Both the position numbers and the translations under genes were made by a program. Below, in pieces: positions 42,921-43,499 of a stretch of DNA of 64,000 nucleotides. Every line of letters starts with the position of its first letter. Position 1 is the stretch's first letter. Location of the stretch: the NCBI RefSeq assembly GCF_009914755.1, contig NC_060938.1; one strand, written 5' to 3'. The notes beneath the pieces are model-generated. The model saw only the letters and a list, made by a program, of their open reading frames with translations. It had not been told where the DNA came from and did no database searches. This DNA is from the human T2T-CHM13v2.0 reference genome, Homo sapiens.

Positions 42921-43132
42921 TCTAGCTATAATTTTATAGAATTGCTGGGTTATAGGATATGTGTATTTACAAATTTATGAGATTTAGACAAATTGTCTTT
43001 AAAGTGATTGTGCTAATTTACACTATTTTTAAAAAAGCTTAAGTAATGTTTTTGTTACTTTAATACATTGAATATTAATTTATTAAGCTGAAGTAACATC
43101 TCATCTGTCCATACAGGCAGCCCTTGAAGACA

Positions 43133-43441
43133 TTTTGTTTTACTTTATTTTATTTTTTTTGAGATGAAGTCTCACTCTGTTGCCCAAGCTGGGGTGCCGT
43201 GGTACAATCTCAGCTCAGTGCAGCCTCCGCCTCCCGGGTTCACGCCATTCTCCTGCCTCAGCCTTCCAAGTAGCTGGGACTACAGGCGCCCGCCACTACG
43301 CCCGGCTAATTTTTTTGTATTTTAGTAGAGACGGGATTTCACTGTGTTAGCCAGGTTGGTCTCGATCTCCTGACCTTGTGATCCGCCCGCCTCGGCCTCC
43401 CAAAGTGCTGGGATTACAGGCGTGAGCCACTGCGCCCGGCC
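43133..43441 (-). mobile_element. AluY with candidate 3' transduced segment (43031-43132)
   Basis: AluY diagnostics (TTCACGCCATTCTCC, GTTAGCCAGG, CTCGATCTCC); the TSD lies ~100 nt beyond the A-tail (see findings). Confidence 0.9.
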
Positions 43442-43499
43442 AATTTACACTCTTAAATATAGTTTCTGCCCATAGATTTTAACTTTTTAAAAAAGTTGT

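What the first reader, a model, noticed from the sequence alone, without database searches (positions are those of the whole stretch)
43015..43454. AluY with apparent 3' transduction ending exactly at a Pol III terminator
Seen: the antisense AluY head (43441) abuts AATTTACACTCTT|AA, an L1-endonuclease-type TCTT/AA site. The matching copy AATTTACACTATT (12/13) is not next to the Alu A-tail. It lies at 43015-27, about 100 nt further out. Read in Alu sense the unit is TSD - Alu - A-rich tail - ~100 nt non-Alu sequence - TTTTTT (43036-31) - short A run - TSD. That T6 is the first run of four or more T after the Alu. Established: Alu Pol III transcripts read into unique flank until the first T4+ run, but that tail is normally lost on insertion. 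Inference: a rare Alu-mediated 3' transduction that would identify its source element. The extra segment also contains AATAAA and ATTAAA.
Basis: partly seen in the sequence, partly recalled or inferred. Interest (0 to 1): 0.75.

Follow-up and report, generated by a model that had tools for sequence, protein, structure and literature searches.

The report
Alu carrying transduced chr1 flank
An antisense Alu on chromosome 14 carries about 100 bases copied from next to an older Alu on chromosome 1, and the copy ends exactly at that locus's RNA polymerase III stop signal, making it a rare, source-traced Alu 3' transduction whose Alu body is a hybrid of two elements.

Summary
A minus-strand Alu (43161-43441) is flanked by a 12/13 direct repeat (43442-54 and 43015-27). 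The 3' copy lies 109 nt beyond the A-rich tail, after T6 plus AAA.

The predicted second locus exists. A whole-genome search with the extra segment gives one other hit, chr1:110039198-110039300 (-), at 96% identity. There the segment sits directly 3' of an Alu. It includes that Alu's own 3' TSD, and homology stops at GCTTTT|C, the first T4 after that Alu. So chr1 is the source and chr14 the copy, and a 3' flank transduction ending at a Pol III terminator is well supported.

Only Alu positions about 218-281, the tail and the flank descend from the decayed S-like chr1 Alu (7 of 7 chr1-specific states shared). Positions 1-213 are a younger Y/Sg-like sequence (0 of 19 shared; p=1.5e-6). I could not decide between RT template switching, completion by recombination with a resident Alu, and later gene conversion.

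A 2024 screen of 118,489 AluY in this same assembly confirmed no Alu transduction. Its AluY-only, same-subfamily rules would miss this case. No primate outgroup check was possible.

The parts
43015..43027 (-). 3' target-site duplication (Alu sense AATAGTGTAAATT)
   Evidence: 12/13 match to 43442-43454. It is the best match in the 500 nt beyond the tail, reached by 5 of 5000 shuffles.
43028..43030 (-). Terminal A3 run. Together with the two A that open the TSD, this is the only terminal oligo(A) of the unit.
   Evidence: It has no counterpart in chr1, which reads CAAAG here.
43031..43036 (-). T6 run. 43033-43036 aligns to the T4 Pol III terminator of the chr1 source, and 43031-43032 are two extra T.
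   Evidence: first T>=4 run after the Alu in both copies (chr14 positions 406-411, chr1 positions 418-421); homology ends here.
43037..43121 (-). 85 nt of unique chr1 flank (transduced). It contains AATAAA at 43079-43084 and ATTAAA at 43059-43064.
   Evidence: the only other genomic copy is C1:110039198-110039300 (-), 96% identity; 4 mismatches; hexamer positions.
43122..43136 (-). Copy of the chr1 source Alu's own 3' TSD (AAAATGTCTTCAAGG)
   Evidence: In chr1 the same 15-mer (14/15) also lies immediately 5' of the source Alu head. This shows chr1 is the original site of this DNA.
43137..43160 (-). Interrupted A-rich Alu tail, retained internally
   Evidence: It aligns, with indels, to the chr1 Alu tail and is bracketed on both sides by chr1-derived sequence.
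43161..43224 (-). Alu positions 218-281: the 3' end of the Alu body, derived from the chr1 Alu
   Evidence: shares 7 of 7 chr1 non-consensus states (positions 218, 230, 236, 239, 255, 261, 268). 59 of 64 positions are identical to chr1. It has 14 differences in 67 compared positions from the Y-like consensus.
43225..43228 (-). Interval holding the chimera junction (between Alu positions 213 and 218). The conservative interval is positions 199-218, because 206 and 213 are CpG sites.
43229..43441 (-). Alu positions 1-213: younger Y/Sg-like Alu part starting at the Alu +1 base. It is not derived from the chr1 Alu.
   Evidence: shares 0 of 19 chr1 non-consensus states and has only 5 differences in 214 positions from the consensus of the 29 closest genomic Alus; it carries GGCGGGCGCC, GTAGTCC and GAATGGCGTG, where chr1 has GGCATGCGCC, GTGGTCC and GAATCGCTTG.
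43442..43454 (-). 5' target-site duplication (Alu sense AAGAGTGTAAATT). The nicked-strand site is TCTT/AAAT.

Best explanation
An RNA from the chr1 locus (T2T chr1:~110.039 Mb, minus strand) was reverse-transcribed by the L1 machinery into chr14. The RNA ran through the 3' end of an old S-like Alu, its interrupted A-tail, its 3' TSD and 85 nt of unique flank. It stopped at the first T4, the minimal Pol III terminator. It was most likely a Pol III read-through transcript started from that Alu's internal promoter.

Priming took place at the true 3' end of the RNA, a U-run followed by a few A, and not in the internal A-tail. That is why the normally discarded 3' unique region was retained, giving a 3' transduction.

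The chr14 Alu is a chimera. Only Alu positions ~218-281 come from chr1. Positions 1-213 come from a younger Y/Sg-like Alu.

Shown:
- The source-copy relationship and its direction.
- The end of homology at the source's first T4.
- The TSD and endonuclease-type target site.
- The chimera and its junction.

Inferred:
- An RNA intermediate and the Pol III origin.
- Oligoadenylation of the RNA end.
- The route to the chimera. My relative odds are about 0.4 for RT template switching onto an active Alu RNA within one TPRT event, about 0.3 for later gene conversion of the 5' part, and about 0.25 for TPRT primed at the tail/TSD border of a resident Y/Sg-like Alu and completed by recombination with that Alu, in which case the TSD would belong to the resident.
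- An age of roughly 10-25 Myr. This uses 4 differences in the 104 nt from the chr1 TSD copy to the end of T4, and substitution rates I recalled rather than checked.
For: Source and direction:
- a whole-genome search with 43031-43135 gave 2 candidates, both scored. They were self and C1:110039198-110039300 (-), at 96% identity over 103 of 105 nt. The segment is therefore not a repeat family and there is a single source.
- in chr1 the segment directly follows an Alu and its tail. It begins with that Alu's 3' TSD, AAAATGTCTTCAAGG, whose partner AAAATGTCTTCAAAG lies at the Alu head. The segment is therefore native to chr1. There is no homology 5' of the Alu heads or 3' of the T-run.

Terminator end:
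- the homology ends at the first T>=4 run downstream of the chr1 Alu (positions 418-421). The chr14 T-run is likewise the first.

Retrotransposition hallmarks:
- a 13-nt TSD (12/13; 5 of 5000 shuffles do as well) and a TCTT/AAAT target.

Chimera:
- the ordered pattern of 19 unshared then 7 shared chr1-specific states gives p=1.5e-6, and 0 of 20000 permutations reach it.
- chr14 differs from consensus at 5 of 214 positions in the 5' part against 14 of 67 in the 3' part. chr1 is evenly old, at 19 of 215 and 7 of 64.

Literature:
- PMC8466645 (passages): Alu-type SINEs are transcribed through the A-tail and terminate downstream at random T runs.
- PMC13174262 (passages): sense-oriented, typically full-length Alu joined 5' of a truncated L1 within one TSD pair, attributed to RNA ligation or RT template switching.
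- PMC3415434 (passages): 6 of 226 de novo Alu inserts were chimeras of a genomic Alu 5' part and the incoming 3' part.
Against: - The source has T4 but the copy has T6, so two extra T need a separate slippage or uridylation step.
- The terminal A-run is only 3-5 nt, whereas L1-mediated inserts normally start with long A-tails. PMC8466645 states that a long poly(A) is strictly required for SINE retrotransposition.
- Because the 5' 213 nt are not from chr1, nothing shows that the chr1 RNA started at the Alu promoter.
- AATAAA and ATTAAA lie 42 and 22 nt upstream of the T-run, so a Pol II polyadenylated RNA ending nearby is not excluded.
- Five chr14-only substitutions cluster in the 32 nt next to the junction (positions 219, 224, 238, 244, 249) and are unexplained.
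- The consensus used came from the 29 best of only 40 scored Alus out of 3768 candidates. They were selected by similarity to chr14, which biases chr14's 5' divergence downward.
- No outgroup genome was available to confirm an empty site.
- A dedicated screen of this assembly confirmed no Alu transduction (bioRxiv 10.1101/2024.04.29.591526, whole text read), so the prior for such events is low.
Confidence: 0.75

Rival explanations
1. Pol II origin. A minus-strand Pol II transcript crossing the chr1 Alu, such as an antisense or intergenic RNA, was cleaved and polyadenylated about 22-26 nt after ATTAAA. It was then retrotransposed like a 5'-truncated processed pseudogene. The Alu head was acquired by template switching or recombination.
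For: AATAAA and ATTAAA lie 42 and 22 nt upstream of the point where homology ends, which is a normal distance for a poly(A) site. Because the 5' 213 nt are not from chr1, the argument from a start at Alu +1 no longer excludes Pol II. The authors of 10.1101/2024.04.29.591526 explicitly leave Pol II co-transcription open.
Against: The end of homology coincides exactly with the first T4. The bases after it in chr1 are CA, the usual cleavage dinucleotide, but chr14 has TT there. A mature poly(A) tail would have had to shrink to 3-5 A while the internal A-rich tail kept 24 nt. The only gene evidence found nearby is five AdoHcyase-domain exon matches on the opposite (+) strand at C1:110022471-110030984. 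I recall this gene as AHCYL1 but did not verify the name.
Confidence: 0.1
2. DNA-level event. A break in a resident chr14 Alu was repaired by invading the chr1 Alu. The repair copied that Alu's 3' end, tail and flank (synthesis-dependent strand annealing or ectopic gene conversion), then rejoined by microhomology next to the resident Alu's 3' TSD.
For: The chimeric Alu, with a resident-like 5' part and a chr1 3' part, is what homology-initiated repair would give. The TSD would then be the resident Alu's own. No long terminal poly(A) is needed. AAA occurs on both sides of the join (chr1 CAAAG, chr14 AAAAATAG).
Against: Repair synthesis has no reason to stop at the first Pol III terminator. By my inference that is roughly a 1-in-100 coincidence for an endpoint anywhere within a few hundred nt. 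Joining at the AAA microhomology predicts GCTTTTCAAA, but GCTTTTTTAAA is observed. It also requires interchromosomal templating plus loss of the resident's own right-arm end and A-tail.
Confidence: 0.07
3. The simple version. The whole chr14 Alu is a faithful full-length copy of the chr1 source Alu. The present differences arose because the 5' part of the chr1 Alu was later overwritten by gene conversion.
For: Both Alus share the same left-arm type, with the 2-nt deletion and ATCGAGACCAxCCTGGCTAA. Alu gene conversion is a known process (recalled).
Against: It is chr14, not chr1, that is internally heterogeneous: 5 of 214 against 14 of 67 differences from consensus, while chr1 is uniform at 19 of 215 and 7 of 64. 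An ancestral chr1 Alu resembling chr14 would itself have had to be a chimera.
Confidence: 0.04
4. Coincidence. The direct repeat is a chance match and the 100 nt is unrelated to the Alu insertion.
For: Short AT-rich words recur. A third 12/13 copy exists at 41708-41720.
Against: A match as good as 12/13 arose in 5 of 5000 shuffles. Independently, the sequence between the Alu and the repeat is a copy of an Alu-adjacent chr1 segment, and its end lies 3 nt from the repeat.
Confidence: 0.01

Closest known systems
L1- and SVA-mediated 3' transduction
   Same: Flanking DNA downstream of a source element is co-transcribed. It is then inserted with the element inside one TSD pair, which allows the source locus to be traced.
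   Different: Those are Pol II transcripts that bypass the element's poly(A) signal and end at a downstream one with a long poly(A). Here the copy ends at a T4 Pol III terminator with only 3-5 A, and the element is an Alu whose own A-tail is retained internally. The background on L1 and SVA is as summarised in 10.1101/2024.04.29.591526.
Previously reported Alu-linked transductions: Kojima's Alu-monomer case and the AluSx3+WaluSat composite of Hoyt et al.
   Same: Alu-family sequence plus non-Alu 3' DNA inside one TSD pair.
   Different: I know these only as cited in 10.1101/2024.04.29.591526 and did not read the primary papers. One involves a monomer with a short flank, the other a satellite-containing composite. 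Here a dimeric Alu carries 100 nt of unique flank with an identified single-copy source and a terminator-defined end. The same preprint confirmed 0 of 633 AluY candidates in T2T-CHM13. PMC4862182 (passage) stated in 2016 that none had been reported.
Chimeric retrocopies made by L1 RT template switching or RNA ligation (U6/L1, Alu/L1)
   Same: A 5' small Pol III RNA part that reaches its own +1 is joined in sense to a 5'-truncated 3' part within one TSD pair at an L1 EN site (PMC13174262, passages).
   Different: Here the 3' partner is an Alu read-through RNA rather than L1. The junction lies inside homologous Alu sequence, so the product looks like one intact Alu.
Alu insertions completed by recombination with a resident genomic Alu (Wagstaff et al. 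2012, PMC3415434)
   Same: [quoted passage not shown]
   Different: Those events lack direct repeats and often delete target DNA. Here a 12/13 TSD brackets the unit. That fits only if priming occurred right at the resident Alu's tail/TSD border.
T+ SINEs (B2, Dip, Ves, Can): AAUAAA-dependent polyadenylation of Pol III transcripts
   Same: A polyadenylation hexamer a short distance upstream of a Pol III terminator at the RNA 3' end (PMC8466645 abstract and passages).
   Different: In T+ SINEs these signals are part of the element, work with additional internal signals and give long tails. Here the hexamers are fortuitous flank sequence, only 3-5 A remain, and Alu is classed as a T- SINE.

Membership tests
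Alu SINE | ~280-bp dimeric body homologous to other Alus, starting at the GGCCGGGCGC head | tested here: met
   65 BLAST HSPs to Alus in the window and L002; 90-92% identity to the best of the 40 scored genomic copies; head at 43441.
Alu SINE | A-rich 3' tail and flanking TSD at an L1-EN-type site | tested here: met
   The tail is at 43137-43160. The TSD is 12/13, but its 3' copy is displaced 109 nt beyond the tail. The target site is TCTT/AAAT.
AluY subfamily | Y-diagnostic bases along the whole element | tested here: inconclusive
   No Dfam or RepeatMasker call was available. Positions 1-213 carry GGCGGGCGCC, GTAGTCC and GAATGGCGTG, like 28 of the 29 closest genomic copies. The left arm reads CCTGGCTAACAC, which I recall as Sg/Sc-like rather than canonical Y. 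From position 218 onward the states are S-like and identical to the chr1 Alu.
Retrotransposon 3' transduction | Non-element DNA between the element's own tail and the 3' TSD | tested here: met
Retrotransposon 3' transduction | The same DNA lies immediately 3' of a same-family element, in the same orientation, at a second (source) locus and is native there | tested here: met
   There is one other genomic copy. It begins with the source Alu's own 3' TSD and continues into unique chr1 sequence.
Retrotransposon 3' transduction | The transduced tract ends at the source's transcription end signal (for Pol III, the first T>=4) | tested here: met
   Homology ends at chr1 GCTTTT|C, the first T4 after the Alu. 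The copy has T6.
Retrotransposon 3' transduction | The offspring element body descends from the source element | tested here: not met
   This is met only for Alu positions 218-281 (7 of 7 shared states). Positions 1-213 share 0 of 19. This lowers the claim of a plain source-offspring Alu pair, not the claim that the chr1 flank was transduced.
Retrotransposon 3' transduction | Terminal poly(A) after the transduced tract | tested here: inconclusive
   Only AAA plus the two A that begin the TSD.
Retrotransposon 3' transduction | The empty orthologous site lacks both the element and the transduced DNA and has one TSD copy | not testable with these tools
   No primate genomes are held. The genome search holds only the window's own assembly and prokaryotes.
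Template-switch chimeric retrocopy | Two RNA-derived parts in the same orientation inside one TSD pair, with the 5' part reaching its own +1 | tested here: met
Template-switch chimeric retrocopy | The chimera was formed during the insertion event rather than by later gene conversion or recombination with a resident Alu | not testable with these tools
   This needs orthologous loci from several primates. No Alu in the 64-kb window carries the chr14 5'-part markers. The 36-mer with three of those markers occurs in only 2 other Alus, both about 87% identical, so no donor was found.
T+ SINE-type polyadenylated Pol III transcript | AATAAA-type hexamer just upstream of the terminator, plus a long non-templated poly(A) | tested here: inconclusive
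   The hexamers are present 42 and 22 nt upstream of the T-run. The long poly(A) is not present. Internal auxiliary signals were not tested.

The most novel reading that the evidence does not exclude
A decayed AluS with a short interrupted tail and a 100-nt 3' unique region would be 'dead' by the usual rules. It still produced a Pol III read-through RNA that ORF2p primed at its true, terminator-defined 3' end (a U-run plus a few added A). Reverse transcription then jumped, guided by homology, onto an active Alu RNA. This would be the first fully source-traced dimeric-Alu 3' transduction in the human reference. It would also point to a hidden class of such events among AluS and mixed-subfamily pairs, which AluY-only, same-subfamily screens cannot see.
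Probability: 0.35. Interest if true: 0.75.

Novelty: new variant of a known kind. Interest (0 to 1): 0.6.

Why it matters
3' transduction is the main way to trace retrotransposon source loci, and it can shuffle genomic DNA. It is routine for L1 and SVA, but for Alu, the most numerous human retrotransposon, it has been considered essentially absent. A dedicated 2024 screen of this same T2T assembly confirmed none among 118,489 AluY. An earlier paper said none had been reported.

This locus gives a concrete example with a single-copy source, a terminator-defined end and TSDs. It shows that the 3' unique part of an Alu read-through RNA can survive insertion. It also shows that the event can be masked by Alu chimerism, which would defeat same-subfamily source matching.

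The locus suggests how to redesign such screens: include AluS, drop the same-subfamily rule and allow very short terminal A-runs. It also gives a natural template for testing where ORF2p primes on Pol III transcripts.

The insertion itself is old, intergenic and has no evident function.

Tried and rejected
- Gene context of the chr1 source. A Pfam N1221 search of the genome found nothing anywhere, controls included, so it is uninformative. AdoHcyase exon matches place a + strand gene 8-17 kb from the source on the opposite strand. The name AHCYL1 is my recollection only. I could not establish whether any minus-strand transcript is annotated there.
- Search for a donor or subfamily for the chr14 5' part. 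The genome search scored only 40 of 3768 candidates, and the best was 92% identical. An exact 36-mer carrying three chr14 variants occurs in 2 other Alus, which are only about 87% identical overall. Neither a donor nor a defined subfamily was found. Two marker sets seen among the hits (A86/A178/CTT and A100/T106) may be real sub-lineages or an effect of how the hits were selected. I did not pursue this.
- Local gene-conversion donor. None of the 49 near-full-length Alus compared (45 from the 64-kb window, 4 from the chr1 locus L002) has the chr14 5'-part markers.
- Segmental duplication is rejected. Homology is limited to the Alu plus about 104 nt and is bounded by TSDs.
- Reverse direction (chr14 to chr1) is rejected. 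In chr1 the segment is continuous with the pre-Alu target, shown by the duplicated 15-mer, and with unique DNA beyond the T4.
- Internal priming on a longer read-through RNA at CAAAG is rejected. It predicts GCTTTTCAAAGAGTG at the junction, which is not observed (my reasoning).
- Literature. Phrase searches for Alu or SINE transduction found 3 papers, only one of them a study of the question. Two canine papers listed by the first search were not useful. I looked at passages of one and did not open the other.
- Table 2 and the supplementary tables of 10.1101/2024.04.29.591526 are images or closed. I could not check whether this locus was among its 633 candidates or its 24 with possible sources.
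- timed out and was re-run faster.

Full report
**What is in the window.** The following reads the minus strand in Alu sense.
- A 13-nt repeat, AAGAGTGTAAATT, lies at 43454..43442.
- The Alu head GGCCGGGCGC starts at 43441 and the body runs to 43161.
- An interrupted A-rich tail follows at 43160..43137.
- Next come 100 nt that are not Alu, at 43136..43037.
- Then TTTTTT (43036..43031), AAA (43030..43028) and the second repeat copy AATAGTGTAAATT (43027..43015, 12/13).

The nicked-strand target reads TCTT/AAAT, an L1-endonuclease-type site. One search confirms that the T6 is the first run of four or more T after the Alu head. It also places AATAAA at 43084-43079 and ATTAAA at 43064-43059, which is 42 and 22 nt upstream of the T-run.

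The repeat is unlikely to be chance. Within the 500 nt beyond the tail, the best match to the head-adjacent 13-mer is this one. A match that good arose in 5 of 5000 shuffles. One search found 3 matches in the window to the word with one free position and up to 1 mismatch, against 0.70 expected. The third, at 41708-41720, is a stray. Only the 'AluY' label needs qualification.

**The source locus.** I searched the window's own assembly with 43031-43135. The search returned two candidates and scored both. One was the query itself. The other was C1:110039198-110039300 on the minus strand, at 96% identity over 103 of 105 nt.

I read that locus as L002 and aligned it to the chr14 unit. The segment lies directly 3' of an Alu in the same orientation. 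It starts with that Alu's own 3' TSD, AAAATGTCTTCAAGG. The partner copy, AAAATGTCTTCAAAG, abuts the chr1 Alu head. The segment is therefore contiguous with the pre-Alu chr1 target and is native to chr1.

Homology ends at chr1 GCTTTT|CAAAG. That T4 is the first run of four or more T downstream of the chr1 Alu. There is no homology 5' of the two Alu heads or beyond the T-run. This excludes a segmental duplication and fixes the direction as chr1 to chr14.

**The Alu body is a chimera.** The two Alu bodies are not simply parent and offspring. I aligned both against a majority consensus of the 29 closest genomic Alus. Only 40 of 3768 candidates had been scored, and they were selected by similarity to chr14, which is a bias.

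The chr1 Alu is non-consensus at 26 comparable sites. At the 19 sites up to position 213, chr14 never shares the chr1 state. At the 7 sites from position 218 onward (218, 230, 236, 239, 255, 261, 268), it always does. This ordered pattern has a best-cut hypergeometric p of 1.5e-6, and 0 of 20000 permutations reached it.

Subfamily-type positions agree. chr14 has GGCGGGCGCC, GTAGTCC and GAATGGCGTG, as do Y/Sg-like copies in the window and 28 of the 29 closest genomic copies. chr1 has GGCATGCGCC, GTGGTCC and GAATCGCTTG, like several S-type copies in the window. The subfamily names are my recollection, because no Dfam or RepeatMasker call was available.

chr14 is internally heterogeneous. It differs from consensus at 5 of 214 positions in 1-215 and at 14 of 67 in 216-282. 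chr1 is evenly old, at 19 of 215 and 7 of 64. So chr14 is the chimera. Positions about 218-281, the tail, the chr1 TSD copy and the flank come from an already decayed chr1 Alu. Positions 1-213 come from a younger Alu. The junction lies in window 43225-43228. The conservative interval is Alu positions 199-218.

**Mechanism.** The best-supported reading is RNA-mediated. A transcript of the chr1 locus ended at its first T4, so it was most simply a Pol III read-through transcript of the chr1 Alu. It was reverse-transcribed at an L1-endonuclease nick in chr14, with priming at the real 3' end of the RNA instead of the internal A-tail.

The + strand reads primer ...CACTATT, then TTT, then AAAAAA, then GC.... 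This implies an RNA ending ...GCUUUUUU followed by at least three A. The short A-run could be a post-transcriptional oligo(A). PMC8466645 (abstract and passages) describes Pol III SINE transcripts that are polyadenylated when AATAAA precedes the terminator. The same paper also states that Alu-type SINEs terminate downstream at random T runs and are normally primed in their templated A-tail. The two extra T (T6 against T4) need a slippage or uridylation step and remain unexplained.

Three routes to the chimera fit the data.
- RT template switching from the chr1 RNA onto an active Alu RNA at a homologous position. The precedent is sense, typically full-length Alu joined to 5'-truncated L1 inside one TSD pair (PMC13174262, passages).
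- Later gene conversion of the 5' part. I found no donor in the window or by 36-mer search.
- Priming at the tail/TSD border of a resident Y/Sg-like Alu, with completion by recombination with that Alu. Wagstaff et al. saw such chimeras in 6 of 226 de novo inserts, but without direct repeats (PMC3415434, passages).

All three keep the central point, which is that chr1 flank was carried to chr14 through an RNA ending at the terminator.

**Rivals.**
- A Pol II transcript polyadenylated after ATTAAA is not excluded, because the 5' part no longer speaks for a start at Alu +1. It predicts CA or a long A-tail at the junction, and neither is seen. The only nearby gene evidence is on the opposite strand: five AdoHcyase exon matches at C1:110022471-110030984 (+). 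I recall the gene as AHCYL1 but did not verify the name.
- A DNA-level repair copy from chr1 would explain the chimera. It would not explain the stop at the first terminator, and it predicts a different junction.
- The simple faithful-copy version fails the heterogeneity test.
- Pure coincidence is excluded.

**Age (inference).** There are 4 differences in the 104 nt from the chr1 TSD copy to the end of T4. There are 5 differences in 214 positions in the young Alu part. With recalled primate substitution rates of about 1e-9 per site per year, these suggest roughly 10-25 Myr, with wide error. I expect the insertion to be shared by great apes and perhaps absent from Old World monkeys. This is untested.

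**Comparison with the literature.** Phrase searches for Alu or SINE transduction found three papers.
- PMC4862182 (passage) said in 2016 that Alu-mediated transductions had not been reported.
- bioRxiv 10.1101/2024.04.29.591526 (whole text read) screened 118,489 full-length AluY in T2T-CHM13, the same assembly as this window. It found 633 candidates and 24 with possible sources, and confirmed none.
- That preprint cites only Kojima's Alu-monomer case and the AluSx3+WaluSat composite as earlier hints.

Its pipeline requires a full-length AluY source of the same subfamily as the copy and a recognisable poly(A) after the gap. An S-like source, a chimeric copy and an A3-5 terminal run would each defeat it (my inference). 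Its candidate tables are images or closed, so I could not check whether this locus was seen. The authors explicitly leave older subfamilies and Pol II co-transcription open.

**Verdict.** The source locus is now identified. The new twist is that the Alu is a hybrid and the source is an old S-like element.

It is a new variant of a known kind. 3' transduction is familiar for L1 and SVA and nearly undocumented for Alu. It has no evident functional consequence at this intergenic site. Its interest is moderately high for mobile-DNA specialists and low for others.

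Noticed in passing
window 43489-43498 and 45089-45098 (DNAJC8P1, 43500-45076 +): The DNAJC8P1 processed pseudogene seems to have its own short direct repeats, AAAAAAGTTG and AAAAAAGTGG. Only about seven A follow its AATAAA. The Alu unit's 5' TSD ends 46 nt upstream of the pseudogene start, so two retro-insertions sit almost back to back.
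   Followed up: no
L002 1802-2088 (chr1 source locus): A 143-bp tandem duplication (2.0 copies, 99% matches) covers 22 nt of 5' flank plus the left monomer of the source Alu. It is absent from the chr14 copy and near-identical between its copies, so it is probably recent. The source Alu's middle A-linker is also expanded to about 22 A.
   Followed up: partly
L002 1183-1484 (chr1 source locus, minus strand): Another Alu is inserted 17 nt beyond the T4 terminator, with its own TSD AAAGTTCAGCTTATA. Its timing relative to the transduction is unknown. It lies past the terminator, so it does not affect the reading.
   Followed up: no
window 43193-43223 (Alu positions 219-249): Five chr14-only substitutions cluster in the 32 nt just 3' of the chimera junction, interleaved with shared chr1-derived states. 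None matches the Y-like consensus. There are none in positions 250-281 and 4 in the 104-nt flank. This could be error-prone synthesis near a switch point, or chance.
   Followed up: partly
window 41708-41720 (-): A third 12/13 copy of the TSD word (AATTTACACTCCT). It is consistent with chance for an AT-rich 13-mer in 64 kb.
   Followed up: no
loci L008, L009, L010, L015, L016 and L006, L007, L012-L014, L018, L019, L021-L023, L025, L029, L032: Among the closest genomic Alus, two recurrent marker sets appear: A86+A178+CTT in five near-consensus copies, and A100+T106 in about thirteen. The chr14 5' part carries both sets. These may be real Alu sub-lineages or an effect of selecting hits by similarity.
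   Followed up: no
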